Origin: a virus
Lineage: Duplodnaviria; Heunggongvirae; Uroviricota; Caudoviricetes; Straboviridae
DNA: 64,000 bases
Strand: one strand, 5' to 3'
Virus record (IMG/VR): IMGVR_UViG_2974656882_000001
Span: 1-64,000 of that record
Part shown: in pieces, positions 1 through 53,552 of the stretch
Position numbering within the stretch: position 1 is the stretch's first letter
Layout of the letters: each line of letters starts with the position of its first letter
Notes under the pieces: generated by a model
Told to the model about the DNA's origin: nothing
The model's database searches: none
What the model saw: the letters and a program-made list of their open reading frames with translations, nothing else
Program-made: the position numbers and the translations under genes

Positions 1-91
1 GTTATAATGGTTCTACCGGTTCACCGCTCTAAATTTAGCTGTTCCGTTGGACTAGAATAGCTGCTGCGCAGCCGGCGCTTCGCGCCGAAAT
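1..91. repeat. Inverted-repeat copy A. Begins with the PeSL-like element gTTATAATggttctacc, then a GC-rich hairpin (cggcgc-ttc-gcgccg). Truncated on the left by the window edge.
   Basis: Reverse complement of ~36141-36228 matches: first ~36 nt identical, a ~20-nt variable core, then ~30 nt identical. Confidence 0.8.
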
Positions 92-977: not shown

Positions 978-2207
978 ATGATAAAATGCTATCATATCCC
1001 ATTTGAGTCAATAAACCCTATCTTTGGAGATTATATGAATCTTGATTTTAGTCGAGACTTCACCGAAAGTGAAATTGAATATCTCAAATCTCTTTCACAA
1101 GAAGAACTCAATGCACTTGAAACACAATGTGAAAATTACATCACTTTATGTGATACAAATCAAATTAACCGAAAACTATTAATTAATAGCTTATATGGTG
1201 CACTCGGTAACATCTATTTTAGATTTTACGATCTTAGAAATGCTGAAGCTATTACAATCTTTGGGCAAATGGTTCTTCAATGGACTGAACGAAAGATTAA
1301 TGCATACTTAAACGAACTATGTGGAACTACAGATCATCCATATGTAATTTATGGTGACACAGATTCTCTTTACATTGAATTGAGTCCATTAATCGAAAAA
1401 GTTGGCATCGATAAATTCTCATCGACTGAAAAGCTTGTTGACTTTTTAGATGCAGTAGCTTCGAAGAAAATCGAACCAGTTATTAACAATGGGTTTAAAG
1501 AGATGTGTGAATATCTCAACAACTATGAACAATTGATGTTTATGGATCGTGAAGCTATTGCATGCCCACCACTTGGTTCTAATGGCATCGGCGGATTCTG
1601 GCGTGCCAAGAAACGATATGCACTTAATGTCTATGACATGGAAGGTACACGTTTCAAAGAGCCATACTTAAAAATTATGGGCATGGAAACTCAACAATCA
1701 TCAACGCCTAAAGCGGTCAAAGATGCATTGTTAGAAAGTATTCGTATTATGCTCCAAGAAGGTGAAAAACCATTGCAAGAGTATTTCAAGAAATTTGAAA
1801 ACGAATTCAGAAATCTTGATTATAAAGTAATTGCTGGCGTTCGTTCTGCAAATAACATTGCAAAATATGATGTGAATGGATTCCCGGGTCTTAAATGTCC
1901 AAGTCATGTTCGTGGTGTTCTTACATACCGACGTGCAATTAAGAAATACGATAACTTGCCAGATATCTCAGAAGGCGAAAAGGTAATGATCTTGCCTCTT
2001 AAACCAGGAAATCCATTTGGTGACAAGTGTATTGCATGGCCATCAGGTAATGAATTGCCAAAAGAAATTCGTGCAGATGTTCTGAAGCATATGGATGTCA
2101 TGGATTTATTTGGCAAAACATACAAAAAACCTCTTGAAGGTATGTGTGAATCTGCAGGTATGCAAGCTGAAAAACGTTCGTCATTGATGGATATGTTTGA
2201 TTTTTAA
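978..2207 (+). CDS. 43: DNA polymerase, C-terminal segment only (gp43B-like: family B motif B KxxxNSxYG and motif C YGDTDS, thumb)
   Basis: LINSLYGALGNIYFRFYDLRNAEAITIFGQ and YVIYGDTDSLYIEL align with T4 gp43 residues ~550-630. The ORF corresponds to T4 gp43 from ~residue 490, so the gene is split and the N-terminal half lies outside the window. Confidence 0.9.
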   Translation: MIKCYHIPFESINPIFGDYMNLDFSRDFTESEIEYLKSLSQEELNALETQCENYITLCDTNQINRKLLINSLYGALGNIYFRFYDLRNAEAITIFGQMVLQWTERKINAYLNELCGTTDHPYVIYGDTDSLYIELSPLIEKVGIDKFSSTEKLVDFLDAVASKKIEPVINNGFKEMCEYLNNYEQLMFMDREAIACPPLGSNGIGGFWRAKKRYALNVYDMEGTRFKEPYLKIMGMETQQSSTPKAVKDALLESIRIMLQEGEKPLQEYFKKFENEFRNLDYKVIAGVRSANNIAKYDVNGFPGLKCPSHVRGVLTYRRAIKKYDNLPDISEGEKVMILPLKPGNPFGDKCIAWPSGNELPKEIRADVLKHMDVMDLFGKTYKKPLEGMCESAGMQAEKRSSLMDMFDF

Positions 2208-4918: not shown

Positions 4919-5551
4919 ATGGATAACATCGATTTAGCATTAAAAGTAGTTGAAGATCAAAATGATGCATTAGATTATCTTCATACTGCTATCGCAGTAA
5001 ATGGCGACAAATATTCAAACATGATTGATATTCTAAAAGTAGTTGCAGCATCAAACTACCGACAACGCATCATGATTACTGGCGTAGGTAAAAATTCAAA
5101 TCTTGCAACTAAAGCGTCTGAAACATTTGCAAGCCTTGGCATCCCATCCATGTATTTGAACACATGTCATTATTCTCATGGCGATGCAGGATTTATCGGA
5201 CATGATGACGTAGTTATCCATGTTTCGCGTTCTGGTAAAACAGAAGAAATGCAATATATGGCACGTCATTTGAAGACTATTCGTCCTAATGTTCTTCAAA
5301 TCTTGTTGCACTGCAATAGCCAATTAACTGAAGAGCAAAAGGCGCCATTTGACATCGAATTTGGTATTCCAGGCATTGTCGAATGCGATGATAATCATCT
5401 TGCACCCACAACAAGTACAACAGTGCTATTGGTTTTATTAGATACTATTGGTGTAATTTTGTCTAAACATCTTAGATTCACACGTGAAAATTTTTATTCA
5501 TACCATCCAGGTGGTTCACTTGGAGCAATGCTCAAATCTGAATCAAAATAA
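4919..5551 (+). CDS. SIS-domain sugar-phosphate isomerase (KdsD/GutQ/GmhA-like; predicted arabinose-5-phosphate isomerase type)
   Basis: ITGVGKNSNLATKASETFASLGIPS ... HGDAGFIGHDDVVIHVSRSGKTEE = SIS fold signature; own promoter ...ggtgaTATAATagg upstream. Confidence 0.75.
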   Translation: MDNIDLALKVVEDQNDALDYLHTAIAVNGDKYSNMIDILKVVAASNYRQRIMITGVGKNSNLATKASETFASLGIPSMYLNTCHYSHGDAGFIGHDDVVIHVSRSGKTEEMQYMARHLKTIRPNVLQILLHCNSQLTEEQKAPFDIEFGIPGIVECDDNHLAPTTSTTVLLVLLDTIGVILSKHLRFTRENFYSYHPGGSLGAMLKSESK

Positions 5552-5591
5552 TTTACTTTACATAAGAACTATGATATAATTGTCATAGTTC
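5551..5591 (+). promoter_or_regulatory. early promoter ATTTAC-N18-TATAAT with the -10 inside a hairpin loop (gaactatga / tcatagttc): PeSL-like
   Basis: read directly; coordinates approximate. Confidence 0.55.
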
Positions 5592-5610
5592 TTTCTTAGG
5601 AATAAACAAT

Positions 5611-14018: not shown

Positions 14019-14046
14019 TTTACTTTATGGTAGAACTGTGATATAA
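14019..14046 (+). promoter_or_regulatory. PeSL hairpin promoter ggtagaac-tgtgaTATAATg-gttctacc (-10 inside the loop). The 3' arm plus -10 is identical to the first 17 nt of the window.
   Basis: read directly; coordinates approximate. Confidence 0.6.
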
Positions 14047-14073
14047 TGGTTCTACCTATTACGGAGAAATGAA

Positions 14074-15382: not shown

Positions 15383-15410
15383 ATTGTAAAAAATGATGTA
15401 CATCTTAGGT

Positions 15411-15435
15411 TATTTTGTTTAAAATAAACCTAAGA
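15411..15435 (+). promoter_or_regulatory. stem-loop atcttaggtt / aacctaagat with 15-nt loop; no T-tract
   Basis: 10-bp perfect inverted repeat between genes; possible processing or stability element rather than a terminator. Confidence 0.4.
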
Positions 15436-15454
15436 TCACATAGAGGAAATTATT

Positions 15455-15631
15455 ATGAAAGCTAAAGACATTGAATCAGTTATTGAAGCAAGAAAATCAA
15501 TAAAACGAGTTGTTGCTTCTATTCGAGACGATTTGAATGCTAGTAAGACTGATGTCCAAATCTCGTTTGAACTTAATCAAATGCAACTTCGCATCAAACA
15601 ACTTATGAACAGTTTAGGTAAACTACAATGA
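15455..15631 (+). CDS. small hypothetical protein (58 aa)
   Basis: SD GAGGAAA; stop overlaps next ATG; below the 60-aa ORF-track cutoff. Confidence 0.3.
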   Translation: MKAKDIESVIEARKSIKRVVASIRDDLNASKTDVQISFELNQMQLRIKQLMNSLGKLQ

Positions 15632-16750: not shown

Positions 16751-16755
16751 AAATA

Positions 16756-16795
16756 AAAGGAAATCAGTTTACTCTGATTTCCTTTTGTGGTATAA
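16756..16795 (+). terminator. rho-independent-type hairpin (aaaaggaaatcag / ctgatttcctttt) abutting TGTGGTATAAT extended -10: PeSL cassette
   Basis: read directly. Confidence 0.6.
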
Positions 16796-16827
16796 TTATT
16801 CTACCAAAATCAATTGAGTAAATTATT

Positions 16828-17151: not shown

Positions 17152-17222
17152 CAATTTAAGTTTACATGTGCTATTATTTGTTTTATAATAGCACTATCAA
17201 ATAATTTATTGGAAGTATCAAA

Positions 17223-17662: not shown

Positions 17663-18688
17663 ATGAGTTGGTTTAGTGATTTTTTATTTGGCAAAAATAC
17701 ACGTGAAACGATAGAGCCTGCTAAATCTATGTTGGATCCAGTAGATGACAAGTTTCCTTTGAACACCTGGGTCAAATTTGAACACATAGTAGAACAAACT
17801 GATGACCTTGTGGCTTTGCGCTTCAACAAACTATTTGCTCGATTTGAAAATTCAACGTATGAGTGGAAAGACAGAGTTTTTGGACGTGACACACGTGTTG
17901 AAGTCTTTGCGTGTTCGCCGATATCACAAATTGAATTATTTAGTCTACAAGATGAAACTGGATCGAAATTCAATTTAACACTCACCTTAGATCTATTAGG
18001 TAAAACTACAAACGGCGAACATCGCACAGTAGTCAGTGCAAGCATCAAACGTAAGTCCGGAAATAAATCTGAACATGCAGATGTTGACGGCATTAGACAC
18101 ATTTCATCTGTTGCAGAAGCTATTGTATTCATTGAACAATTGATACATGATGGCAAAATCGTTTTGACACCTACTCCTGTAGGTCGATATGAATCATATA
18201 GATTCGAGTTTGGTAAGCATTGGAAAAAGGATAACATCATTGTTACATGTTATCCACGTTCAATGACAATTCACACACTCAATGATGATGGCACAATAAA
18301 CGTTGATAACATAACTACTCGTTTGGTGTTTAACACAGAATCTTTTTATCGTGATGCAAATAATAAATTAAACGAAATCGGCGTTCGTGATGAAACATGG
18401 GTAGAAGTCGAATCGCCTGAATCTGAATGGCCTGAAGCGTTTATTGCGACTAAAGCAAAGGAAATATCTGAGCGATTCAAAGAATTATCAGAACATATGG
18501 ATCATGTATTTGCAATGCATAAACGTATTGCTGATGCGATGCAATCATATGAAGTAGGCTACATTGCTCCTATTAAATGCTTTGATAGCTATACAGCATT
18601 TTTGAATATAGCAAAAATGAAATCAGATTTTGAGGACTACGAAGTCGAAAATTACTTACGTAGTATCGGCAAATTTGAACGAGGATAA
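17663..18688 (+). CDS. hypothetical protein (341 aa)
   Basis: long ORF, no recognised motif. Confidence 0.5.
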   Translation: MSWFSDFLFGKNTRETIEPAKSMLDPVDDKFPLNTWVKFEHIVEQTDDLVALRFNKLFARFENSTYEWKDRVFGRDTRVEVFACSPISQIELFSLQDETGSKFNLTLTLDLLGKTTNGEHRTVVSASIKRKSGNKSEHADVDGIRHISSVAEAIVFIEQLIHDGKIVLTPTPVGRYESYRFEFGKHWKKDNIIVTCYPRSMTIHTLNDDGTINVDNITTRLVFNTESFYRDANNKLNEIGVRDETWVEVESPESEWPEAFIATKAKEISERFKELSEHMDHVFAMHKRIADAMQSYEVGYIAPIKCFDSYTAFLNIAKMKSDFEDYEVENYLRSIGKFERG

Positions 18689-22834: not shown

Positions 22835-22874
22835 GTTTACTTTTGATAAGACTATTGTTATAATAGTCTTATCA
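22835..22874 (+). promoter_or_regulatory. early promoter GTTTAC-N18-TATAAT with a PeSL hairpin gataagactat / atagtcttatc around the -10
   Basis: read directly; coordinates approximate. Confidence 0.6.
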
Positions 22875-22897
22875 AATAACCTAATGAGTAAAACATC

Positions 22898-25782: not shown

Positions 25783-25999
25783 TCGTCTTTGTACTACGGA
25801 AGAATTCTTCCGTAGTCATTCTATTGATGAATGCAATAGAATAATCGAAGGTTCTAAACAATCTGGCCATAATTTCTACAGCCTAAAGGATAAAACATAT
25901 TGGCCAAAGAGCGCTGGTAGTAAAAACGATATATGCTGTATATCGCTATCGATGTTGGTCAAAGGTAAAAATGAAAATGGGAATTATGTTATTATGTAA
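25772..25999 (+). CDS. hypothetical protein (75 aa), overlaps the end of gene 56
   Basis: ATG 11 nt before the gene-56 stop. Confidence 0.3.
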   Translation: MAINRLCTTEEFFRSHSIDECNRIIEGSKQSGHNFYSLKDKTYWPKSAGSKNDICCISLSMLVKGKNENGNYVIM

Positions 26000-26009
26000 T
26001 ATTTCATCA

Positions 26010-26036
26010 AAAAGGTGCTCAATGAGCACCTTTTGT
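26010..26036 (+). terminator. rho-independent terminator (aaaggtgctc-aatg-agcaccttttgttg)
   Basis: GC stem plus T-tract, followed by GTTTAC-N18-TATAAT. Confidence 0.7.
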
Positions 26037-26096
26037 TGTTTACAACACATGTATATTGTAGTATAATTAAACCTATCATCCAATGAGTAAATCATT

Positions 26097-26997: not shown

Positions 26998-27304
26998 ATT
27001 ATTCGGCAAAACATATAGAATATCGCGTGTAAATGAAGCTGAAACACAGATTGAAGAAAATTCATTAGATCTTCCAAGGGTTCCTAAATGCAATTGCAAT
27101 TTGCCAGATATTGAACCCGGGATGTATGTAAAGTTTTTAGTAAATCGTGATGCAGTCGGCATCAAAGCTGGTGATGTACGTAAAGTTGAAACTGTATGTG
27201 GCGATCTGATTATTACAGAAGGTGAACCAGACAAAGCATATGGCTGGCTGCCTAATTTTGGTATTCACAAATCATATTTGATGCCAATGAAAAAATGTGA
27301 ATAA
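26987..27304 (+). CDS. hypothetical protein (~105 aa)
   Basis: overlapping start. Confidence 0.35.
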   Translation: MQFKLFGKTYRISRVNEAETQIEENSLDLPRVPKCNCNLPDIEPGMYVKFLVNRDAVGIKAGDVRKVETVCGDLIITEGEPDKAYGWLPNFGIHKSYLMPMKKCE

Positions 27305-27308
27305 AGCA

Positions 27309-27345
27309 GTTTACTTCAACAAAAACAATTGATATAATAGTCTTA
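27309..27345 (+). promoter_or_regulatory. early promoter GTTTAC...GATATAAT plus conserved leader tagtcttatcaaatc
   Basis: read directly. Confidence 0.55.
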
Positions 27346-27384
27346 TCAAATCTAATAACGGATTTGATAATTGAGGAAATTACA

Positions 27385-27615
27385 ATGCAAATATTTTTAT
27401 CACACTTTGATGCTTCGCAATTTGTTTTAAATGGTAATCATTTAGTCAATGAAGCTAATGGCATCAGCATTCTTGTAATGCCTGAAGATAATTCATTTGC
27501 ATTGTATCAAAACAATGAGTTTGTAAAGGCCGAAAATGAATCTGGTCTTGAAGAACTCGTAAATCAAGTAATCAAATCATTTATTAAAACACGTCATTCA
27601 TTTGAATCTATCTAA
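27385..27615 (+). CDS. hypothetical protein (76 aa); leader contains the tcaaatc/gatttga stem-loop and SD GAGGAAA
   Basis: read directly. Confidence 0.4.
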   Translation: MQIFLSHFDASQFVLNGNHLVNEANGISILVMPEDNSFALYQNNEFVKAENESGLEELVNQVIKSFIKTRHSFESI

Positions 27616-27626
27616 GGAAGCTAATT

Positions 27627-27764
27627 ATGGCTAAGCAAAAAACTGCACAAGTTGAAATCCAAACTTCTAAAACTGGCAAACTTCGTGATCCACAAGGTTT
27701 AATGAAGCTTGCTTTAAAACTCGGACAAATTCGTTCTCGCCGTATTGCAGGTGAAGCTAAGTAA
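27627..27764 (+). CDS. small basic protein (45 aa)
   Basis: SD AAGGAAG 7 nt upstream; followed by terminator. Confidence 0.3.
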   Translation: MAKQKTAQVEIQTSKTGKLRDPQGLMKLALKLGQIRSRRIAGEAK

Positions 27765-27786
27765 ATAAAAGTTAAATGATATAAAT

Positions 27787-27808
27787 GGCACCGAATGGTG
27801 CCATTTTT
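27787..27808 (+). terminator. rho-independent terminator (ggcacc-gaat-ggtgcc-ttttt)
   Basis: read directly. Confidence 0.75.
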
Positions 27809-27818
27809 GTGAGGTAAT

Positions 27819-27953
27819 ATGACATATTTTGAAGTACGCAGAGCTCTAAACATAGAGCTTTCAAATCATTTTTCTGCTGAAGAATTAGCCGATGATAAAA
27901 TGAAACAAATCATCGAATTATTGGCAGTAGCCTTAGCGTACTCACTAAAGTAG
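27819..27953 (+). CDS. small protein (44 aa)
   Basis: SD GAGGTAA. Confidence 0.3.
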   Translation: MTYFEVRRALNIELSNHFSAEELADDKMKQIIELLAVALAYSLK

Positions 27954-27961
27954 AGGTAATT

Positions 27962-28459
27962 ATGAAATACGCTGGCATTGGATCTCGTAGAACGCCTATG
28001 GATGTTCTAGCCAAACTCAGAGAAGTTGCAAAACATTTAGAACTTGCAGGTCACGTTTGTCACACAGGCGGAGCTTTAGGCGCAGACAAAGCATTTATTG
28101 ATGGAGCTCCTGAAACAACTGTGCTTTGGTTGCCTTGGCAAGGCTACAATGGATATTATTCTAATACACCAGAATTACGTCAGAGACATATTGATTTTGC
28201 AGCCAAATATCATCCAAACTGGAAAGCTTGTAAATTCTCTGCTCGCAAAATGCATGGCAGAAATGCTCAAATTACACTCGGTGATAATCTTGATGAGCCA
28301 GCCGATTTTATTGTTTGTTGGACACCAGATGCAAAAATTGAAGGTGGTACTGGTATGGCTTTAAGAATTGCAATCGATTATGATATTCCAGTTTTCAATC
28401 TAGGTGCTAAACGTGGTGCAGATAAAGTAATTGAAGAGCTCTATAATTATATCTCATAA
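27962..28459 (+). CDS. DprA/Smf-like Rossmann-fold (SLOG-type) domain protein (165 aa)
   Basis: GIGSRRTP...VCHTGGALGADKAFIDGA matches the DprA pattern GSR...SGGAxGxDxxAHxGAL. Confidence 0.5.
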   Translation: MKYAGIGSRRTPMDVLAKLREVAKHLELAGHVCHTGGALGADKAFIDGAPETTVLWLPWQGYNGYYSNTPELRQRHIDFAAKYHPNWKACKFSARKMHGRNAQITLGDNLDEPADFIVCWTPDAKIEGGTGMALRIAIDYDIPVFNLGAKRGADKVIEELYNYIS

Positions 28460-28520
28460 AGGGTTTACTTTATACTAGAGATGTGGTATAATTGCTCTAT
28501 CATCTACCATGGAGTTTCTA

Positions 28521-28682
28521 ATGGTAAGACAATTTATTTCGTTTGTCATGACAGTAATGATTGTTATGATTCTGTTCATAACACCGGATCTTAAGTGCAC
28601 ATTAGCTGCAGCCGCAATATGCTTATCCGTATTTGTGGCTGTAAATATAATTTTAGATAAATCGGATTCAGTAAAATGGTAA
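28521..28682 (+). CDS. small membrane protein (53 aa)
   Basis: SD GGAG; 2 TM. Confidence 0.3.
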   Translation: MVRQFISFVMTVMIVMILFITPDLKCTLAAAAICLSVFVAVNIILDKSDSVKW

Positions 28683-28948
28683 TGTATGCTCTATCTGTGA
28701 CTATTGCATTTATGATATTTTCTGTAGCAGGAAATGTAATTGTGCACATTAAATATCAAAATGGGTTTGATCATTTTGATAGCTTTGACAAAAAGGTTTA
28801 TTGGGCTGTGCTTTTAATTGCATCATTCGCATGGATGGTTGCAGGCCCTATTGCAATAGTTGCTCTTGTAATTTATTTACTAAATAAGTTTACAACTCGA
28901 ATTTCCCATGGTATAATTAACCTTATCAACAAACGTAAACATAAGTGA
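28676..28948 (+). CDS. membrane protein (90 aa, 2-3 TM)
   Basis: overlapping start. Confidence 0.4.
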   Translation: MVMYALSVTIAFMIFSVAGNVIVHIKYQNGFDHFDSFDKKVYWAVLLIASFAWMVAGPIAIVALVIYLLNKFTTRISHGIINLINKRKHK

Positions 28949-29772
28949 GACAAAACATGAAATCTTTAAAAACTGCATTAGTAATCGCTTTAGCTGCCTC
29001 AACTATGATTGGTTGTTCAAAAGTAATGGATAGCGAAGTGGCTATTTCTGAAAATCGTTTCACTGGTGGAATCAGTGATAAGGTATTAACTCAAGGTCTT
29101 CATCAATTTGCAACACAGAAAATTATTCCCGTGTCAAAGCGAAATCTTGTTTTGCCAACAATCGTTGCAACTCCTATTGTTCAAGAAAAAATTGCAATGA
29201 AAAGCTTTCAAATGAAAGTAAACTATGGCATTGTACCTGAAAATGCTGCAATTGCATACAAAACTGAAAAAGCACAAAACATGACCACCAAAGATGGCGA
29301 CGTATATCTTCTTGGGTACTATGTTGAATATCTTGCAAAAGCAGCAATTAATGATGTTGTTTCACAATACCGAGCGTTAGAAGTCAATGACAATCGTTCT
29401 AAAATTGAAACTGAAATTCGCGATGCAATCAACAAAAAGCTTGATGCTTCAGGTAAATCGAAGTTTGTTCGAGTAAATGAAATTTCAGTAATTGATATTC
29501 AGCCGCCATCTCAAATTACTGAATCTTCTGCTGCAATCTTGAAATCTGAACAAGATCTCAAAACACGCAAAAACGAACTTGAAGTAGCGAAAGTTGAACA
29601 AGAAAAAATGAAAGTATTAGCTCAGCAAGCTGACGCTCAATATGTAAACTTGCTAAATGCACAAGCTCGAGTTACAGAAGCAGAAGCGTTGAAAATCGCT
29701 GCCTCTAAAGGTAATGTGTCTACAATCATCGTACCGCACAATTTTCAAAGTTTAGGTAATGTTTCTAAATAA
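28945..29772 (+). CDS. lipoprotein with SPFH/band-7 (prohibitin/HflC-like) domain and C-terminal coiled coil
   Basis: lipobox LAASTMIG-C; ...VRVNEISVIDIQPPSQI...EQDLKTRKNELEVAKVEQEKMKVLAQQADAQ typical of the SPFH C-terminal region. Confidence 0.5.
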   Translation: MRQNMKSLKTALVIALAASTMIGCSKVMDSEVAISENRFTGGISDKVLTQGLHQFATQKIIPVSKRNLVLPTIVATPIVQEKIAMKSFQMKVNYGIVPENAAIAYKTEKAQNMTTKDGDVYLLGYYVEYLAKAAINDVVSQYRALEVNDNRSKIETEIRDAINKKLDASGKSKFVRVNEISVIDIQPPSQITESSAAILKSEQDLKTRKNELEVAKVEQEKMKVLAQQADAQYVNLLNAQARVTEAEALKIAASKGNVSTIIVPHNFQSLGNVSK

Positions 29773-29784
29773 AACTATTTACAT

Positions 29785-29815
29785 GATAGAACTGTTATGA
29801 TATAATGGTTCTATC
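29785..29815 (+). promoter_or_regulatory. PeSL hairpin promoter ATTTAC-N18-TATAAT with gatagaac / gttctatc arms flanking the -10
   Basis: read directly. Confidence 0.6.
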
Positions 29816-29841
29816 AAATCAAACAACATAAGGATTTCACC

Positions 29842-30066
29842 ATGGATTTAGCTAATGTTATCGCAACTCGTCCTGAAGGTACTGTTGTAATCGCCGTTGT
29901 AGAATCTGAAGAAATGTATTCATACTTTGATGATGCAGGTAATATCTGGACACAAGACGATGAACAATGGGAATCTAACCATGGCTGGAGCCCTGAAGAT
30001 TCGATCGAATCACTGTCTGAAAATGATTTAGAAGTTAAAGTAATTTTTGATATTCGCGGAGAATAA
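29842..30066 (+). CDS. acidic hypothetical protein (74 aa)
   Basis: SD AAGGA. Confidence 0.4.
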   Translation: MDLANVIATRPEGTVVIAVVESEEMYSYFDDAGNIWTQDDEQWESNHGWSPEDSIESLSENDLEVKVIFDIRGE

Positions 30067-30067
30067 C

Positions 30068-30535
30068 ATGTCTTACAAAACATTCTCTCGCATAGTTTTA
30101 ATAAGCGCAATAGTTATATTTTTAGGCATAGCTGAATATAATTTCTGGCAAAATGGAGGCTATGCAAAATATGAAACACGGGTAACCGCTTCAGGAATAG
30201 TATCAGGCAAATATGAAACAGATTACGCCTGTGGATCAAAAGGACGATATACATGTTATGCTCGGTACTTAACAATCGATGGCGTAAATCAAGAAGTTGA
30301 TCTTGGTACATTTACTTCAGCATATAACGGCCAACATATAACGTTGACGAGAGAAGTGAGAGTAAACGATTCTGGGTGGAATGTATTGTGTATTGGCATA
30401 CACACTATTATGTGGGTATTAGCTGCATGTATACTCATACTAGTATTTGGGCAATTCATTTATTGGTCGGTAGAGTTATCAGATAAAATTTCATTAAAAA
30501 CTTTTTATCGAAACATTTGGATAGGTGGAAAATAA
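30068..30535 (+). CDS. N-terminally membrane-anchored protein (155 aa), second TM near the C-terminus
   Basis: start at MSYKTFSRIVLISAIVIFLGIA. Confidence 0.4.
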   Translation: MSYKTFSRIVLISAIVIFLGIAEYNFWQNGGYAKYETRVTASGIVSGKYETDYACGSKGRYTCYARYLTIDGVNQEVDLGTFTSAYNGQHITLTREVRVNDSGWNVLCIGIHTIMWVLAACILILVFGQFIYWSVELSDKISLKTFYRNIWIGGK

Positions 30536-30536
30536 T

Positions 30537-30878
30537 ATGAAGAAGAAATGTATTCTTTTAATTGATTCACTAAAAAACATACAAAACAACGTTAAAAGTG
30601 AACTTAAATTGCTCGATAGCAAAATTGCTAAAATTCATCGTACTATGTATAATGAACGTAAATGGAGAATTCGTAATAATAGACCGCTAGGTGCCAAAGA
30701 TAAAGCTCGTGAAAATGAGGTACAACAAGCTAAAGAATCGCTTGAACTTCTAGCAAGTACATTTAGACACCATATAAGAAGTTACGGTGATGCTATTTGT
30801 CGAATTCGTGAAGTTAAACGAGGTAACTCAAAGAAAAATGTTGATGACATTATCTTAAATCTGTTTACTTCGTTATAA
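30537..30878 (+). CDS. basic coiled-coil protein (113 aa)
   Basis: ATG right after upstream stop. Confidence 0.4.
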   Translation: MKKKCILLIDSLKNIQNNVKSELKLLDSKIAKIHRTMYNERKWRIRNNRPLGAKDKARENEVQQAKESLELLASTFRHHIRSYGDAICRIREVKRGNSKKNVDDIILNLFTSL

Positions 30879-30925
30879 AAGTATGGTATAATGGTCTTAT
30901 CAAATCTAATAATTGATTTGAAATT
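30864..30925 (+). promoter_or_regulatory. early promoter GTTTAC-N17-TATAAT (30864-30892) plus conserved structured leader atcaaatc-taataatt-gatttgaa (7-bp stem) just upstream of the SD
   Basis: same cassette, nearly identical, at ~31321-31380, ~32570-32628 and ~27334-27384. Confidence 0.65.
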
Positions 30926-30941
30926 AAATGAGTAAATTACT

Positions 30942-31286
30942 ATGAACATCTTAGATTTAATCGAATTCTTTCCTAAAGCTTCAACTATCCATACAGCATT
31001 TTGCAATGAGTTTGATATTGCTCCTCATGCTTTAGAAACTTTTAGCACTTACTATATTGAAAGCTTATCATTTAAAGATGGCTGCCCGATAATTCGTGCA
31101 TATACGATTTATTCTACCTGGTGCAATAGTGAAATGCGCACAGTTTATCATATCTTTGGATGGACGGTTTCGAAAAATCGTATAGAAATTGACGATGAGC
31201 CTTTAAATGCAAATCGTTTTACAGGATTTGACTTTGCTCTTTCATATTTGATGAATCGAGTTCAAGTTTCAGAATTAAAAAATTAA
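30942..31286 (+). CDS. hypothetical acidic protein (114 aa), member of a tandem paralog set
   Basis: shares ...I(E/T)IDDEP(L/F)... C-terminal block with 31381-31734. Confidence 0.45.
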   Translation: MNILDLIEFFPKASTIHTAFCNEFDIAPHALETFSTYYIESLSFKDGCPIIRAYTIYSTWCNSEMRTVYHIFGWTVSKNRIEIDDEPLNANRFTGFDFALSYLMNRVQVSELKN

Positions 31287-31296
31287 AATAAATTGC

Positions 31297-31327
31297 ACAA
31301 AAGGAGTATACATCATACTCCTTTTGT
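31297..31327 (+). terminator. hairpin acaaaaggagtat-acatc-atactccttttgt fused to GGTATAAT promoter
   Basis: read directly. Confidence 0.65.
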
Positions 31328-31380
31328 GGTATAATGGTCTTATCAAATCTAATAATTGATTTGAAATTGAGGAAATTATT

Positions 31381-31734
31381 ATGCTAAACATCCAATTACC
31401 TTCAGTTGAACAAATCGTAGATCAATTTCACATCGATTTCAATATCACCGATGGCAACTTCAATTACAAATCATCCTTTGTAACATCTGCAACTCCTAAC
31501 CGATTAACTGCTAATGGCTTTAATGATGGCTGGGAATTACGTATGCTAACTGTTTATTCAGTTTTTGATGCGGATATTGATGCAATTCAATATGTAATTT
31601 GGGGCTCTTCTGTTGACACAAGTACAATGGATATTACAATTGATGATGAACCATTTTTCGATCAATCATTCGATTCATTAGAGCAAGCATTACGTGCATT
31701 AAATTATGAAGTAAATGCATATAAAATTCACTAA
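31381..31734 (+). CDS. hypothetical acidic protein (117 aa), paralog
   Basis: MDITIDDEPFFDQSF versus RIEIDDEPLNANRF. Confidence 0.45.
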   Translation: MLNIQLPSVEQIVDQFHIDFNITDGNFNYKSSFVTSATPNRLTANGFNDGWELRMLTVYSVFDADIDAIQYVIWGSSVDTSTMDITIDDEPFFDQSFDSLEQALRALNYEVNAYKIH

Positions 31735-31802
31735 TTAGTTTACATGATAGAGCTGTTATGATATAATAGTTCTATCAAATCAATCACAATGAGTAAATTG
31801 TT

Positions 31803-32126
31803 ATGAACATCATATTTCCTTCACATATCGCAGTAGAAAACGCAATTGGCGCAGAGTTTTACGTAATTAGCTGCCCTAAGCTAAATCGTTTGTATTACAA
31901 AGGTGCCTTTGTTAATTCTGATTCAAATTGGGAAGTCCAAGGTTTCGCCTTATACAATTACTACGATGAAGACCTAGGTGAAACAATCTATATGTGCGTA
32001 GAATTCTCTTATGACACCGAAAATGAAGTTTTTGAATTTAAAGAATTCATTGAGCCAGGTGGTCATGATGATATTGATGAAGCCGAAGAATATTTACAAT
32101 CACTATATAATGTGAAATTAGTGTAA
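31803..32126 (+). CDS. hypothetical acidic protein (107 aa)
   Basis: own PeSL promoter and leader. Confidence 0.45.
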   Translation: MNIIFPSHIAVENAIGAEFYVISCPKLNRLYYKGAFVNSDSNWEVQGFALYNYYDEDLGETIYMCVEFSYDTENEVFEFKEFIEPGGHDDIDEAEEYLQSLYNVKLV

Positions 32127-32200
32127 AAGGCAATTTACATTGCGATAAGACTATGGTATAATAGTCTTATCAAATCAAACAACACATTGAGTAAATTAAT

Positions 32201-32536
32201 ATGCGTTCATTAAACAATTTCAAAAACACTGTTCCAAATTTTGTTAAGAATCACCTTGGCGCCATTGAATTGGTTCAAATTATGGAATTTCCGGACCATT
32301 TCCTTATTATGACGTTTGACGCTTTAGAAGAAGAGTACACTGTAACTTCAGTAAACAAACGTGAAAATGATGACCAATATGAATCTGAATTGTTCAATGG
32401 GTATTCTGAAAAAATAACTCTTGGCGAATACGAAGAAGAAGTCGAAGATGAAACGATTGATCTTGAAGTTATTACATCGTTTGAAGATTATGCAATATAT
32501 CGTTTTGCATTAGAACTCGGTATCGAAGGAATTTAA
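32201..32536 (+). CDS. hypothetical acidic protein (111 aa)
   Basis: own PeSL promoter and leader. Confidence 0.45.
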   Translation: MRSLNNFKNTVPNFVKNHLGAIELVQIMEFPDHFLIMTFDALEEEYTVTSVNKRENDDQYESELFNGYSEKITLGEYEEEVEDETIDLEVITSFEDYAIYRFALELGIEGI

Positions 32537-32628
32537 TTAAACTAATAAACTGTTTACATCTTGATAGGACTATAGTATAATAGTTCTATCAAATCTAATA
32601 ACAGATTTGAAATTTGAGGAAATTAAAA

Positions 32629-32835
32629 ATGAAAGCATCAATTACTAAAATCCCTGAAGGCACTACTGTTGTTTCACAACTTAACGGCGAATTTTACTTC
32701 TATAAACCTATTGAAGGTGAAATCGTTACACCTGAAGGACATCAAGCACCATGTTCAATGGTATGGTGCACTGATGAAAATGGAGGATGCTGGGAATACT
32801 CTTACCTTGACATTTCAAAAATCGAAATAAAATAA
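32629..32835 (+). CDS. hypothetical protein (68 aa)
   Basis: SD GAGGAAA. Confidence 0.35.
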   Translation: MKASITKIPEGTTVVSQLNGEFYFYKPIEGEIVTPEGHQAPCSMVWCTDENGGCWEYSYLDISKIEIK

Positions 32836-32836
32836 A

Positions 32837-32861
32837 ACAAAGGAGCTTTAAGCTCCTTTTG
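32837..32861 (+). terminator. terminator hairpin caaaggagcttt-aagctcctttt
   Basis: followed by a second AT-rich hairpin and GTGGTATAAT. Confidence 0.65.
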
Positions 32862-32951
32862 TGGCAAAAATAAAAAGAAAATTATTTACTTCTGCTTTTT
32901 ATTGTGGTATAATAGTTCTATCAACACGTTAAACTAATTGAGTAAAACATT

Positions 32952-33425
32952 ATGAATATTTTTCATTTTGACACAAATCCAGCTAAATCTGCACAATATC
33001 ATTGTGACAAACATGTTGTTAAAATGTGTGTCGAATATTGTCAAATTCTTTCTACTGTTTCTCGTTTAAACGGCTGTGATCAGGAAATTCTTTATAAAGC
33101 AACTCATAAAAATCACCCATGTGTTGTATGGACTATGCAATCTCGCCAAAACTACGAGTTCCTCCTTGATCTAGTTATCGAGTTATTTGGTGAATATACA
33201 TACCGCTATGGCAAAGTTCATGCTAGTTCACGAGTTATCCCTGCATTAATTGACAATATTTCAAAAATTCCATTAGGTGCAAATAAACTTACACCATTCG
33301 TCGCAGTAATGCCAGGTCGTATTCTTCATACTAATGTAATTAACGAGTACCGATCACTTTATAAAAATGAAAAAGCACACATGGCAAAATGGACCGGTCG
33401 TGGTATTCCATTCTTTATGAAATAA
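32952..33425 (+). CDS. hypothetical protein (157 aa)
   Basis: conserved leader ttgagtaaaacattATG. Confidence 0.45.
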   Translation: MNIFHFDTNPAKSAQYHCDKHVVKMCVEYCQILSTVSRLNGCDQEILYKATHKNHPCVVWTMQSRQNYEFLLDLVIELFGEYTYRYGKVHASSRVIPALIDNISKIPLGANKLTPFVAVMPGRILHTNVINEYRSLYKNEKAHMAKWTGRGIPFFMK

Positions 33426-33491
33426 AAACTATTTACATAGGTGCCATTATGTAGTATAATGGCACTAACAGAAATTAATGAGTAAAATATC

Positions 33492-33821
33492 ATGCCATTA
33501 CCAAATTTTATAGCACTTCGTAAATTCCTTGGTACTAATTATGATGAGCTGCACGCAACTCTCCTTGTAAAAGGCTTCATCAGAGACATTGATCAATCAT
33601 CAGGTGTTCTAGATCAAATTCTATTTAGAGGTAAATTTACTTGTTCTGAGGTGTTATCTTCACATAGGTTTCCGGTAAAAGTCCAATATCTTGCAATTGC
33701 TGCAGCTGTTGAAGAAATGGAAGCCAAAGGCATACAGTTACCAAAACATGGCATTGCATCTAAATGTACTACATGTTCAAAATGTAAATCCGAACGTGCT
33801 CTATTGGAGACGTATCAATGA
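33492..33821 (+). CDS. hypothetical Cys-containing protein (109 aa)
   Basis: C-terminal CTTCSKCKSE. Confidence 0.45.
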   Translation: MPLPNFIALRKFLGTNYDELHATLLVKGFIRDIDQSSGVLDQILFRGKFTCSEVLSSHRFPVKVQYLAIAAAVEEMEAKGIQLPKHGIASKCTTCSKCKSERALLETYQ

Positions 33822-39509: not shown

Positions 39510-39566
39510 TGGTTTACTTTAGGATAGGCTTATGTTATAATAGGCCTATCAACCGGGAGTTATGAA

Positions 39567-41114: not shown

Positions 41115-41204
41115 TTTTTTTTTTTTTGGCCTAGATGTTTACATCTAGGCCATTTGATGTTATAATAGTCATATCAAATCATTAATCAAATTGAGGAAAT
41201 TATC

Positions 41205-46105: not shown

Positions 46106-46180
46106 AATAATTAGCCCAGATAGTTTACATTATCTGGGCTTTTTGATATTATAGTCTTATCATCTAATGAGTACATTGAA

Positions 46181-53525: not shown

Positions 53526-53552
53526 AAAAAGGGACCAAATGGTCCCTTTTGC
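53526..53552 (+). terminator. rho-independent terminator aaaagggacc-aaat-ggtcccttttg
   Basis: followed by GTTTAC...TATTAT promoter for motA. Confidence 0.75.

What the first reader, a model, noticed from the sequence alone, without database searches (positions are those of the whole stretch)
27300..33500. PeSL-like mobile promoter cassettes: the -10 hexamer sits in the loop of a hairpin, and a near-identical promoter plus structured leader is replicated in front of successive small ORFs
At least 25 intergenic sites carry (GTTTAC or TGn)-TATAAT followed by a conserved rGTyCTATCAAATC block. In many, the sequence 5' of the -10 is the reverse complement of the block 3' of it (e.g. gatagaac-tgttatgaTATAATg-gttctatc; gataagactat-tgtTATAAT-atagtcttatc), so the -10 lies in a hairpin loop. 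Several cassettes (30864-30941, 31321-31380, 32570-32628, 27334-27384) are almost base-for-base identical. They extend into a 5' leader with a 7-bp stem (tcaaatc / gatttga) just upstream of the SD, and a conserved aaTGAGTAAA-N5-7-ATG initiation region recurs elsewhere. This is the signature of recombination-competent regulatory cassettes (PeSL type) that shuffle ORFs in hyperplastic regions. The conserved leader hairpin suggests a shared post-transcriptional control, such as an RNase or translational-repressor target.
Basis: seen in the sequence. Interest (0 to 1): 0.55.

Follow-up and report, generated by a model that had tools for sequence, protein, structure and literature searches.

The report
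Phage promoter–hairpin cassettes that shuffle genes
The early-gene region of Acinetobacter phage AbTZA1 holds many near-identical promoter-plus-hairpin cassettes of a kind already described in other T4-like phages (PeSLs), and comparison with sister phages shows that small genes have been gained and lost by recombination between these cassettes.

Summary
The window is bases 1-64000 of Acinetobacter phage AbTZA1, a T4-like phage of the Straboviridae.

- **Promoters:** 29 T4-early-type promoters (GTTTAC-N18-TATAAT) lie on the gene strand. 23 carry the conserved downstream block, against 1.45 expected by chance.
- **Hairpins:** Ten promoters have an inverted repeat straddling the -10. The arm sequences differ between promoters but stay complementary. 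Mismatches are G·T 20 times and A·C twice, which points to a sense-strand RNA hairpin. About eight other promoters have a terminator hairpin with the -35 in its loop.
- **Interchange:** Orthologous sites in other phages switch between the two hairpin types.
- **Leaders:** Four cassettes share a hairpin that starts at +1/+2 of the transcript. TGAG(G/T)AAA-N5-ATG is the standard ribosome-binding site.
- **Recombination:** Against Melin, PhT2 and AB-Navy71, six of eleven indels have a cassette at both ends, with crossovers inside the shared block.

Arbiol et al. 2010 already describe PeSL subclasses whose stem-loop overlaps the -10. This is therefore a new member of a known kind. The roles of the hairpins (attenuator or 3' barrier; 5' stabiliser) are inferred, not shown.

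The parts
27309..27384 (+). Cassette for gp053. -35 GTTTAC at 27309-27314; -10 TATAAT at 27333-27338; predicted +1 at A27345; 5'-terminal leader hairpin at 27345-27368; SD GAGG at 27373-27376; ATG at 27385. No upstream hairpin.
   Evidence: leader hairpin -8.1 kcal/mol, z -6.2
27783..27806 (+). Terminator-like hairpin AAATGGCACC-gaat-GGTGCCATTT followed by TTGTG. It lies after gp054 and has no promoter. AB-Navy71 has a 496-bp ORF insertion immediately downstream.
28463..28520 (+). Promoter for gp057 (-35 at 28463-28468, -10 at 28487-28492). No clear hairpin.
28888..28956 (+). Promoter for gp059 (-10 at 28912-28917), lying inside the 3' end of gp058.
29777..29841 (+). Cassette for gp060. -35 at 29777-29782; -10 at 29801-29806. 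Stem-loop spanning the -10 with arms 29784-29798 and 29802-29816 (15 bp including 2 G·U).
   Evidence: -15.4 kcal/mol, z -5.6
30863..30941 (+). Cassette for gp063. -10 at 30887-30892; leader hairpin at 30900-30921; RBS TGAGTAAA at 30929-30936. It is the left partner of the gp063 deletion seen in Melin.
31296..31380 (+). Cassette for gp064. Terminator hairpin at 31296-31328 (14-bp arms, T-run TTTTGTG) overlapping the -35; -10 at 31330-31335; leader hairpin at 31343-31364.
31738..31802 (+). Cassette for gp065. -10 at 31762-31767; stem-loop arms at 31745-31759 and 31763-31777; RBS TGAGTAAA at 31790-31797. It is the left partner of the gp065 deletion in Melin.
   Evidence: z -6.1
32133..32200 (+). 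Cassette for gp066. -10 at 32157-32162; stem-loop arms at 32144-32154 and 32161-32171; RBS TGAGTAAA at 32188-32195. It is the right partner of the gp065 deletion (Melin) and the left partner of the gp066 deletion (PhT2).
   Evidence: z -6.5
32552..32628 (+). Cassette for gp067. -10 at 32576-32581; stem-loop arms at 32561-32573 and 32580-32592 (1 G·U); leader hairpin at 32589-32610, which overlaps the 3' arm.
32839..32859 (+). Terminator-like hairpin AAAGGAGCT-tta-AGCTCCTTT followed by TGTGG, after gp067.
32884..32951 (+). Cassette for gp068 (-10 at 32908-32913; RBS TGAGTAAA at 32939-32946).
33431..33491 (+). Cassette for gp069. -10 at 33455-33460. Stem-loop arms at 33441-33450 and 33456-33465 (GTGCCATTAT/ATAATGGCAC), so here the -10 lies largely in the stem. 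RBS TGAGTAAA at 33479-33486.
   Evidence: z -5.1
5564..5593 (+). -10-spanning stem-loop of the gp014 promoter, with unrelated arm sequence AAGAACTATGA/TCATAGTTCTT.
   Evidence: z -6.2
14029..14056 (+). -10-spanning stem-loop of the gp023 promoter (GGTAGAAC/GTTCTACC). The AM101 ortholog has ATAGGACTAT/ATAGTCCTAT instead.
17168..17194 (+). -10-spanning stem-loop of the gp031 promoter (GTGCTATTAT/ATAATAGCAC). The AM101 ortholog has a terminator hairpin around the -35 instead.
22842..22876 (+). -10-spanning stem-loop of the gp043 promoter (15-bp arms). AM101 shows an A-T to G-C compensatory change.
   Evidence: z -7.5
39523..39550 (+). -10-spanning stem-loop of the gp082 promoter (GATAGGCTTAT/ATAGGCCTATC).
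16755..16796 (+). Example of the other class: terminator hairpin AAAAGGAAATCAG-tttact-CTGATTTCCTTTT with most of the -35 hexamer in its loop, followed by GTGG-TATAAT (gp030). Similar elements lie at 2747-2790, 26010-26034, 41127-41152, 46113-46140 and 53527-53550.

Best explanation
These are PeSL-type composite regulatory cassettes of a T4-like phage. Each cassette sits between the stop codon of one early gene and the start of the next, and it has three working parts.

1. Promoter. It is a strong host sigma-70 early promoter of the T4 type: an AT-rich upstream region, GTTTAC, an 18-nt gap (equivalent to TTTACN with a 17-nt spacer), often TGn, then TATAAT, with the start predicted at the A of tATCAAATC.

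2. Stem-loop squeezed into the promoter. Its arms use only the positions the promoter leaves free. In one class the arms flank the -35 and end in a T-run, forming an intrinsic terminator. In the other class the 5' arm is the spacer and the 3' arm runs from the AAT of the -10 to about +6. In this second class the 5' arm lies upstream of the cassette's own start site. The hairpin can therefore form only in RNA that reads through from an upstream promoter. There it most likely insulates transcription units, by attenuating read-through and/or blocking 3' exonucleases.

3. Short leader. It is either an unstructured A/C-rich stretch or a hairpin beginning at +1/+2. The hairpin most likely protects the 5' end from 5'-end-dependent decay. 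The leader ends in the phage's standard ribosome-binding site, TGAG(G/T)AAA-N5-ATG.

The 40-50 bp from the -10 to the RBS are nearly identical in many cassettes. They therefore act as portable homology for the phage recombination system. Exchange between neighbouring cassettes deletes, inserts or swaps the small ORFs between them and keeps the cassettes homogenised.

Shown here: the sequence anatomy, the covariation of the arms, the strand-specific G·U tolerance, and the cassette-to-cassette breakpoints. Inferred: promoter activity, the hairpin's effect on read-through, and the leader hairpin's role.
For: Promoter motif: 23 hits against 1.45 expected, all on the gene strand. The sites lie directly upstream of annotated genes.

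Covariation of the arms: the spacer and the post -10 block of the same promoter are more complementary than those of different promoters. Permutation tests give p<1e-4 for AbTZA1 (n=44), 2e-4 for AM101 (n=19), 3e-4 for Acj9 (n=19) and 0.03 for T4 (n=11). The arm sequences are unrelated between sites but each pair is complementary, for example AAGAACTATGA, GTGCCATTAT, ATATTATGAGA and CGTGTTATGTAGT.

Ortholog comparisons: there are double compensatory changes, such as gp043 and gp067 going from A-T to G-C in AM101, and complete arm replacement with pairing kept at gp023. T4's dmd promoter reads GACAAGACTA..TAGTCTTGTC, against AbTZA1's GATAAGACTAT..ATAGTCTTATC.

Strand asymmetry: 34 unique -10-spanning stems contain 380 Watson-Crick pairs, 20 G·T and 2 A·C (p=6e-5). 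The terminator-class stems show the same bias, 11 against 3.

Functional equivalence: orthologous intergenic sites switch between the -10-spanning and the terminator class, at gp031 and gp014.

Position: the hairpins start 10-27 nt after the upstream stop codon.

Stability: z = -5 to -7.5.

Recombination:
- 7 of 11 indels against Melin, PhT2 and AB-Navy71 have a breakpoint within 50 bp of a -10.
- 6 of the 11 have a cassette at both ends.
- Shared homology at the joins is 46-50 bp.
- Chimeric cassettes have crossovers in TATAATAGT or in TATAATAGTCTTATCAAATC.

Cassettes evolve differently from their ORFs: cassettes are nearly identical from the -10 to the RBS (81% mean column identity over the whole 95-column alignment, which includes the divergent upstream halves), while the ORFs they precede share only 24-35% amino-acid identity. 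The same leader cassette occurs in Acj9 and Acj61, where it precedes orthologs of gp065 and gp067 at 51-60% amino-acid identity.

Leader hairpins: they start at +1/+2, and variants keep pairing: AUCAAAUA/UAUUUGAU, UCAAAUAAA/UUUAUUUGA and AUCAAAA/UUUUGAU.

Literature: PeSL stem-loops overlapping the -10 or the -35 have been described, G-T pairs were noted in them, and one stem-loop and two promoters were tested in lacZ reporters (PMC2839356; PMC4122927).
Against: - No transcript data exist for this phage, so promoter use and start sites are predictions.
- The -10-spanning hairpins are not followed by a U-tract. Their tails read aatcaaac, taacctaa, tattacgg and similar. They are therefore not canonical intrinsic terminators, and their effect on read-through is unproven.
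- Only about a third of promoters carry them. 8-11 of the 29 have no convincing hairpin.
- A fixed-register, column-wise covariation test over all 93 promoters is not significant: 53/500 and 134/500 shuffles reach the observed pairing.
- Many stems are paralogous or orthologous copies, so the G·T count is not made of fully independent events.
- Five of the eleven indels are not cassette-to-cassette, for example the gp061 loss at a plain gene junction.
- Breakpoints at gene boundaries are also what selection alone would leave.
Confidence: 0.7

Rival explanations
1. The inverted repeats act in DNA rather than RNA. In this view a hairpin or cruciform forms at the promoter, either in supercoiled DNA or in one strand during replication. 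It would either help open the -10 or serve as a preferred cleavage or exchange site for phage enzymes (endonuclease VII, gp46/47). That would make the cassettes active recombination sites, in the way that folded attC sites serve integrons.
For: - Crossovers map to the loop/-10 region of the repeats, as reported for RB49 mini-circles (PMC2839356).
- The phage encodes endonuclease VII and the gp46/47 nuclease, annotated as palindrome-specific.
- G·T tolerance on one strand would also fit a hairpin formed only in the sense DNA strand.
Against: - A cruciform needs both strands to pair, yet A·C (the partner of G·T on the other strand) is tolerated only as the complement of G·T, never on the sense strand: 20 against 2.
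- Orthologous sites swap this hairpin for an ordinary RNA terminator placed about 20 nt upstream. That argues for a shared RNA role rather than a role tied to the -10.
- The crossover positions coincide with the longest identical blocks, as plain homologous recombination predicts.
- No site-specific recombinase is annotated.
Confidence: 0.12
2. The palindrome is an operator for a dimeric DNA-binding protein that shuts off, or modulates, a subset of early promoters.
For: The repeats are centred on the promoter core near -12, where a bound protein would block RNA polymerase. Early transcription in T4-type phages is shut off within minutes by means that are not fully understood (PMC2988021).
Against: - The arm sequences are unrelated between promoters and change in concert between orthologs. 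A protein would need conserved half-sites, not conserved complementarity.
- The repeats span up to 35 bp and vary in register.
- The G·T versus A·C asymmetry has no meaning for duplex recognition.
Confidence: 0.03
3. The repeats and the near-identity of the cassettes have no function of their own. In this view they are leftovers of tandem duplication of a gene with its promoter. They are kept similar by gene conversion, and the inverted repeats arise from templated (quasi-palindrome) mutation.
For: - gp063, gp064 and gp065 are weak paralogs, so part of the array did arise by duplication.
- Within Acj61, four tandem cassettes are identical over 35 nt, as gene conversion would produce.
- Recombinant cassettes with broken stems exist, such as the gp066 promoter in Melin.
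Against: - Hairpins with unrelated sequences occur at non-paralogous genes and in different genera, always just after a stop codon.
- Templated mutation would not favour G·T over A·C.
- The interchange with true terminators at orthologous sites points to selection for a stem-loop as such.
Confidence: 0.1
4. This rival concerns the leader only. The conserved hairpin AUCAAAUC-UAAUAAYN-GAUUUGA, perhaps together with TGAGTAAA, is the binding or cleavage site of a phage factor such as a translational repressor or endoribonuclease. That factor would co-regulate the cassette genes.
For: - Stem and loop sequence are almost invariant between AbTZA1, Acj9 and Acj61, while the downstream proteins are only 51-60% identical. 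That is more conservation than structure alone requires.
- The phage encodes RegA.
Against: - AM101 keeps a 5'-terminal hairpin with a different stem and loop sequence.
- The hairpin does not cover the SD or the AUG, which are the regions where RegA-type repressors act (my knowledge of T4 RegA).
- Its constant feature is that it starts at +1/+2. That is the hallmark of 5'-end protection against RNase E-type decay (established knowledge for E. coli, not tested here).
- The sequence identity can also come from cassette exchange.
Confidence: 0.25

Closest known systems
PeSLs (promoter-early stem-loops) of coliphages RB49 and phi1 (Arbiol et al. 2010, PMC2839356)
   Same: - Composite promoter plus stem-loop in the gap between stop codon and RBS.
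- Stem-loops placed between the -35 and -10, or overlapping the -35 or the -10.
- G-T pairs in the stems.
- Clustering in hyperplastic regions in front of small ORFans.
- Indels between sister phages bounded by the elements, with crossovers inside them.
   Different: - The promoter here is of the T4 early type (GTTTAC) rather than perfect TTGACA.
- The stems are AT-rich and lack the polyG/polyC motif.
- The conserved block extends into the transcribed leader (ATCAAATC, with or without a 5' hairpin) and the RBS.
- Mini-circles and terminator activity were shown for RB49/phi1 and are untested here.
PeSLs of T4/PST and KVP40/nt-1 (Comeau et al. 2014, PMC4122927), and the elements at the T-even internal-protein loci (Repoila et al. 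1994, as cited in PMC2839356)
   Same: They share the TTTACW-N17-TAYWAT promoter, weak AT-rich stem-loops, and an association with ORF exchange. T4 itself has two -10-spanning repeats among the 11 promoters scanned, upstream of dmd and motB. The dmd repeat differs from an AbTZA1 stem by one compensatory pair.
   Different: In the 2014 figures the stem-loops are described as lying just upstream of the promoter. Here most overlap the promoter core. The Acinetobacter phage lineage was not analysed in that work.
T4 genes whose promoter lies inside a hairpin, so that only the shorter transcript is translated (gene e, soc, 49, I-TevI; my knowledge of the T4 literature, not checked here)
   Same: A promoter is embedded in an inverted repeat, so that read-through RNA forms a hairpin while promoter-initiated RNA lacks the 5' arm.
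   Different: In those cases the 3' arm sequesters the ribosome-binding site, and the internal promoter is late or middle. Here the 3' arm ends at about +6, which is 20-40 nt before the RBS, so translation is not obviously masked.
5'-terminal stabilising stem-loops of bacterial mRNAs (for example the ompA leader; established knowledge)
   Same: The leader hairpin begins at the first or second transcribed nucleotide.
   Different: No decay measurements exist for this phage. The sequence conservation here exceeds what a purely structural element needs.

Membership tests
PeSL (promoter-early stem-loop cassette) | Strong sigma-70-type early promoter (-35, about 17-nt spacer, -10) with an AT-rich upstream region | tested here: met
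   29 sites in the window have GTTTAC-N18-TATAAT or TGn-TATAAT. The region upstream of the -35 is 70-91% A+T at most sites, against 64% for the genome. This is sequence evidence only; activity was not tested.
PeSL (promoter-early stem-loop cassette) | A stable stem-loop associated with the promoter, in any of the five described positions (upstream, overlapping the -35, in the spacer, overlapping the -10, or downstream) | tested here: met
   10 of 29 promoters have a stem-loop spanning the -10 and about 8 have one around or upstream of the -35. z-scores are -5 to -7.5. 8-11 promoters have none.
PeSL (promoter-early stem-loop cassette) | Intergenic position between the stop codon of the upstream gene and the SD/start of the downstream gene | tested here: met
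   Annotation and coordinates agree. The one exception is the promoter with its -10 at 28912, which lies inside the end of gp058.
PeSL (promoter-early stem-loop cassette) | Concentration in hyperplastic regions, in front of small ORFs of unknown function | tested here: met
   Ten cassettes lie in 27.3-33.5 kb in front of hypothetical ORFs of 53-271 aa (gp057 to gp059). About 19 cassettes lie in the other 50 kb of the early region.
PeSL (promoter-early stem-loop cassette) | Indels or replacements between closely related phages are bounded by the elements, with crossovers inside them | tested here: met
   6 of 11 indels against Melin, PhT2 and AB-Navy71 have a cassette at both ends. Joins share 46-50 bp of homology and chimeric cassettes are present.
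PeSL (promoter-early stem-loop cassette) | The stem-loop terminates or attenuates upstream transcription | not testable with these tools
   Only indirect support exists: sense-strand G·U tolerance and interchange with canonical terminators at orthologous sites. The -10-spanning class lacks a U-tract.
PeSL (promoter-early stem-loop cassette) | Formation of circular excision products (mini-circles) by recombination between neighbouring elements | not testable with these tools
   This needs inverse PCR on infected cells or phage particles.
Intrinsic (Rho-independent) terminator | GC-containing stem-loop immediately followed by a U-rich tract | tested here: not met
   This verdict applies to the -10-spanning class, whose tails are A-rich (aatcaaac, taacctaa, and similar). 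The criterion is met by the other class, for example 31296-31328 and 16755-16786.
Rfam RNA families | Match to any curated covariance model at the gathering score | tested here: not met
   No hits in the whole window.

The most novel reading that the evidence does not exclude
In this reading the promoter-embedded palindromes are more than passive homology and RNA insulators. They would be strand-specific folded DNA sites, analogous to integron attC hairpins. The phage's structure-specific nucleases (endonuclease VII, gp46/47) would cut them to start cassette excision and insertion, which would make the array a recombinase-free gene-cassette system. The strand-specific G·T tolerance and the crossovers in the loop/-10 region do not exclude this.
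Probability: 0.07. Interest if true: 0.75.

Novelty: new member of a known kind. Interest (0 to 1): 0.33.

Why it matters
The result extends PeSL-type cassettes to the Acinetobacter T4-like phages (Twarogvirinae), which include phages used therapeutically. It also gives a concrete account of why sister phages differ by whole small early ORFs.

The comparative data add two points that could be tested directly.

1. The stem-loops behave as sense-strand RNA structures, and they are interchangeable with ordinary terminators.
2. The homogenised unit extends into a conserved 5'-terminal leader hairpin and RBS that are shared across genera.

For phage engineering, the cassettes mark natural, tolerated insertion and deletion points, and they provide compact strong promoters for Acinetobacter.

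Tried and rejected
1. Column-wise covariation in a single register. I tested two registers (axis at -12, and between -12 and -11) over all 93 promoters of four phages. Neither was significant: 53/500 and 134/500 shuffles reached the observed pairing. Only about a third of promoters carry the repeat, and the registers differ. The register-free permutation test is the informative one.

2. Rfam at gathering thresholds over the whole window gave no hits.

3. A leader peptide. In several cassettes aATGAGTAAAnnnnnATGA reads as a 5-codon mini-ORF (MSKLL-stop) overlapping the real start. I rejected this for three reasons. The stop depends only on the base after the ATG. Many copies begin with TTG or lack the stop. 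TGAGGAAA occupies exactly the same position and spacing, so the motif is simply the RBS.

4. TGAGTAAA as a special repressor site. I found no evidence for it. It is as frequent as TGAGGAAA (18 against 15 copies) and shows no fixed link to leader type.

5. Recent tandem duplication as the whole explanation for cassette identity. I rejected this because the ORFs are only 24-35% identical, or unrelated.

6. Phage 133 as a further comparison. Its early promoters do not fit this consensus, with only 2 hits, so it added nothing.

7. Literature search for PeSLs or promoter analyses in Acinetobacter T4-like phages, or for AbTZA1. Nothing relevant turned up in the searchable library.

Full report
**Identity of the sequence.** Bases 27300-33500 of the window are 100% identical to Acinetobacter phage AbTZA1 (MK278860.1 / NC_049445.1) at the same coordinates. 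The window is therefore bases 1-64000 of that 168,223-bp genome (Straboviridae, Twarogvirinae, Hadassahvirus). The first ~55 kb is the early region. Nearly all its genes are on the + strand, and they include the split DNA polymerase, primase, helicase, dda, srd, rIIA/B, motA and asiA. regA, alt, endonuclease VII and gp46/47 lie elsewhere in the genome.

- The pattern TATAATNNNYYTATCA with up to one mismatch occurs 23 times, always on the + strand. Dinucleotide shuffles give 1.45.
- A scan for GTTTAC-N18-TATAAT (equivalent to TTTACN-N17-TATAAT), or TGn-TATAAT, finds 29 sites in the window and about 48 in the genome. Almost all lie directly upstream of annotated genes.
- The generic sigma-70 scan ranks the same sites at the top, at 10-11 of 12 matches.

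**The hairpin at the -10.** Ten of the 29 window promoters have an inverted repeat spanning the -10, and about 17-19 of 48 do so genome-wide.
- The 5' arm is the spacer.
- The 3' arm runs from the AAT of the hexamer to about +6.
- The loop is usually gTTAT or ggTATA. More exactly, then, half of the -10 is in the loop.
- As RNA the ten fold at -11.6 to -17.1 kcal/mol, with z = -5.1 to -7.5.

The arms are not one conserved motif. Examples are GATAGAAC, GATAAGACTAT, GGTAGAAC, GTGCCATTAT, GTGCTATTAT, AAGAACTATGA, ATATTATGAGA and TATATGAGG, each matched by its own complement.

A register-free permutation test asked whether a promoter's spacer pairs better with its own downstream block than with those of other promoters. 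It gives p<1e-4 in AbTZA1 (n=44), 2e-4 in AM101 (n=19), 3e-4 in Acj9 (n=19) and 0.03 in T4 (n=11). A fixed-register column test over all 93 promoters is not significant. That is expected when only a third of the sites carry the repeat and the registers differ by a few bases, but it limits how far the claim can be generalised.

**A second hairpin class.** About eight other window promoters have a GC-richer hairpin that encloses or overlaps the -35 and ends in TTTTGTGG just before TATAAT. These lie at 2747-2790, 16755-16786, 26010-26034, 31296-31328, 41127-41152, 46113-46140 and 53527-53550. They are ordinary intrinsic terminators whose T-run doubles as the TGn spacer.

**RNA or DNA?** I pooled the unique stems from AbTZA1, Melin, PhT2, AM101, Acj9 and T4.
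- The 34 -10-spanning stems contain 380 Watson-Crick pairs, 20 G·T and 2 A·C (binomial p = 6e-5).
- The 36 terminator-class stems show 11 G·T against 3 A·C.

A duplex-level feature, whether a protein operator or a cruciform, should tolerate G·T and A·C equally. A sense-strand RNA should tolerate only G·U, which is what is seen. The counts include related copies, so the p-value is optimistic, but the direction is clear.

The 5' arm lies upstream of the cassette's own predicted start. The hairpin can therefore exist only in RNA that reads through from an upstream promoter. It always begins 10-27 nt after the upstream stop codon.

**Orthologous sites.**
- The gp043 and gp067 promoters show A-T to G-C double changes between AbTZA1 and AM101.
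- The gp023 promoter has entirely different arms in AM101 (ATAGGACTAT/ATAGTCCTAT against GGTAGAAC/GTTCTACC), and they are still complementary.
- The gp031 site has a -10-spanning hairpin in AbTZA1 and a terminator around the -35 in AM101.
- The gp014 site has a -10-spanning hairpin in AbTZA1, a different one in AM101, and a terminator in Acj9.

This interchange argues that what is selected is a stem-loop after the upstream gene, placed wherever the promoter leaves free positions.

Even T4 has two examples among the 11 promoters scanned, upstream of dmd and motB. The dmd stem (GACAAGACTA/TAGTCTTGTC) differs from an AbTZA1 stem by one compensatory pair.

**What the hairpin does is inferred.** The -10-spanning class lacks a U-tract, so it is not a canonical terminator. 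The best-supported reading is the one given for PeSL stem-loops: attenuation of read-through and/or a barrier for 3' exonucleases, which insulates the many tandem early units. This was not testable here.

**Leader and RBS.** With +1 placed at the A seven nucleotides after the hexamer, four AbTZA1 cassettes form a hairpin that starts at +1/+2. These are at 27345-27368, 30900-30921, 31343-31364 and 32589-32610, with z = -4.1 to -6.2.
- The same sequence occurs four or five times in Acj9 and five times in Acj61, including four tandem copies.
- AM101 and Acj9 have variants that keep pairing: AUCAAAUA/UAUUUGAU, UCAAAUAAA/UUUAUUUGA and AUCAAAA/UUUUGAU.
- A stem that begins at the very 5' end is the classic arrangement for protection from 5'-end-dependent decay (established knowledge, not tested here). 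A factor-binding role remains possible, given the near-invariant loop across three genera.
- The other leaders are unstructured and A/C-rich.
- TGAGTAAA occurs 18 times on the + strand and once on the - strand. It sits at exactly the position and spacing (N5 before the ATG) of TGAGGAAA, which occurs 15 times. It is therefore the weaker variant of the phage's standard RBS.

**Recombination.** I compared the early region with Melin and PhT2 (about 50 kb each) and with an 8.7-kb segment of AB-Navy71. This gave eleven indels or replacements.
- Seven have a breakpoint within 50 bp of a -10, and six have a cassette at both ends.
- Melin lacks gp065. Its sequence is 100% the 31762 cassette up to TATAATAGT and 100% the 32157 cassette after it.
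- PhT2 lacks gp066, with the switch inside TATAATAGTCTTATCAAATC.
- Melin lacks gp063, with a chimeric cassette at the join.
- Melin has an extra ORF at 41161 flanked by two copies of a 50-bp cassette block.
- Melin has another extra ORF at 46147 flanked by two terminator-promoter cassettes, of which AbTZA1 keeps a hybrid.

I also applied a conservative null in which breakpoints fall only at gene junctions, about 28% of which carry a promoter. Under it, cassettes at both ends are expected in about 8% of events, not 55%. The other five events, such as the gp061 loss at a plain junction, show that the cassettes are not the only route.

One recombinant, the gp066 promoter in Melin, has a partly broken stem. 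This shows how imperfect repeats arise.

gp063, gp064 and gp065 are only 24-35% identical, while their cassettes are nearly identical from the -10 to the RBS. In Acj61 the hairpin-leader cassette precedes orthologs of gp065 and gp067, although gp065 has a different leader in AbTZA1. Cassettes therefore evolve in concert within a genome and are exchanged among ORFs.

**Comparison with what is known.** Arbiol et al. 2010 defined PeSLs in RB49/phi1 as a strong early promoter plus a stem-loop.
- They described five subclasses according to where the stem-loop sits. The commonest positions are between the -35 and -10, or overlapping the -10.
- They noted G-T pairs in the stems.
- They showed promoter and terminator activity in reporters and demonstrated mini-circles (PMC2839356).
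- Comeau et al. 2014 extended the concept to T4/PST and KVP40/nt-1 (PMC4122927).

Every sequence-level defining feature is met here. The functional features could not be tested. I found no paper applying the concept to Acinetobacter phages in the searchable library.

The finding is thus a new member of a known kind. Its local peculiarities are the T4-type -35, AT-rich stems, and a conserved transcribed leader and RBS as part of the repeated unit.

**Verdict.** The '-10 in a hairpin loop' feature is a known PeSL subclass, and it behaves as an RNA structure of read-through transcripts. Interest is moderate to low: this is a clean, well-documented example that adds some testable detail, not a new kind of system.

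Noticed in passing
window 1-90 (+) and 36226-36140 (-). Also genome 65907-65990 (+), about 97820-97900 (+) and 136131-136060 (-), which correspond to L006:15907-15990, L006:47834-47853 and L007:36066-36085.: A five-copy repeat. Each copy is a consensus promoter (tgTTATAAT) followed by about 45-75 conserved nucleotides: GGTTCTAC(C)GGTTCACCGCTCTAAATTTATCTATTTGGTCGGAGAAGTATAGCTGC..., and in two copies (window 1-90 and 36226-36140) also a CGGCGC-TTC-GCGCCG hairpin. Three copies form long 5' leaders of + strand genes (gp001, gp109, gp155). Two copies point against their neighbouring genes, in unusually large gaps: between Tk.4 phosphatase and srd, and between gp193 and gp194. The repeat is present in Melin and PhT2, but not in the fetched 50 kb of AM101, Acj9, 133 or T4. 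There is no Rfam hit, no compensatory pairs among three copies, and no conserved small ORF. Its function is unknown; it could be a small RNA, a shared regulatory leader or a mobile element.
   Followed up: partly
window 30942-32536: gp063, gp064 and gp065 (107-117 aa) are weakly similar to each other: 35% over 63 aa at E=5e-4, and 24% over 80 aa at E=1e-3. They form a diverged tandem paralog family. Each has its own cassette, and members are individually present or absent in sister phages. Acj61 has a gp065 ortholog at 60% identity.
   Followed up: partly
L015 (T4) about 18583-18612 and about 5186-5215 of the locus, which is T4 genome about 20588 and about 7191: Phage T4 itself has -10-spanning inverted repeats at the promoters upstream of dmd (GACAAGACTA-tggtatag-TAGTCTTGTC) and motB (GGGACCA-gagtataa-TGGTCCC). 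The dmd stem is nearly the same as an AbTZA1 stem apart from one compensatory pair. The module is therefore either old or exchanged between subfamilies.
   Followed up: partly
window 15400-15455: A 13-bp hairpin, CTTAGGTTATTT-tgttta-AAATAAACCTAAG, lies just before the gp027 RBS with no promoter. Melin and PhT2 lack gp026, and at this position Melin has a promoter with a -10-spanning repeat (ATAGGGCTATT/AATGGCCCTAT); the PhT2 sequence here was not read.
   Followed up: no
window 25790-26002: A 211-bp non-coding stretch lies between the dUTPase/dCTPase gene and gp050. It is absent from Melin and replaced in PhT2. It ends about 60 bp upstream of the -10 at 26062 and just before a terminator hairpin at 26010-26034.
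   Followed up: no
window 1035-2207, and genome 165973-167481: The DNA polymerase is split into 43A and 43B parts, separated by about 1.7 kb that holds five small ORFs and one copy of the five-copy repeat. The Melin record annotates the same gene as 'intron interrupted'.
   Followed up: no
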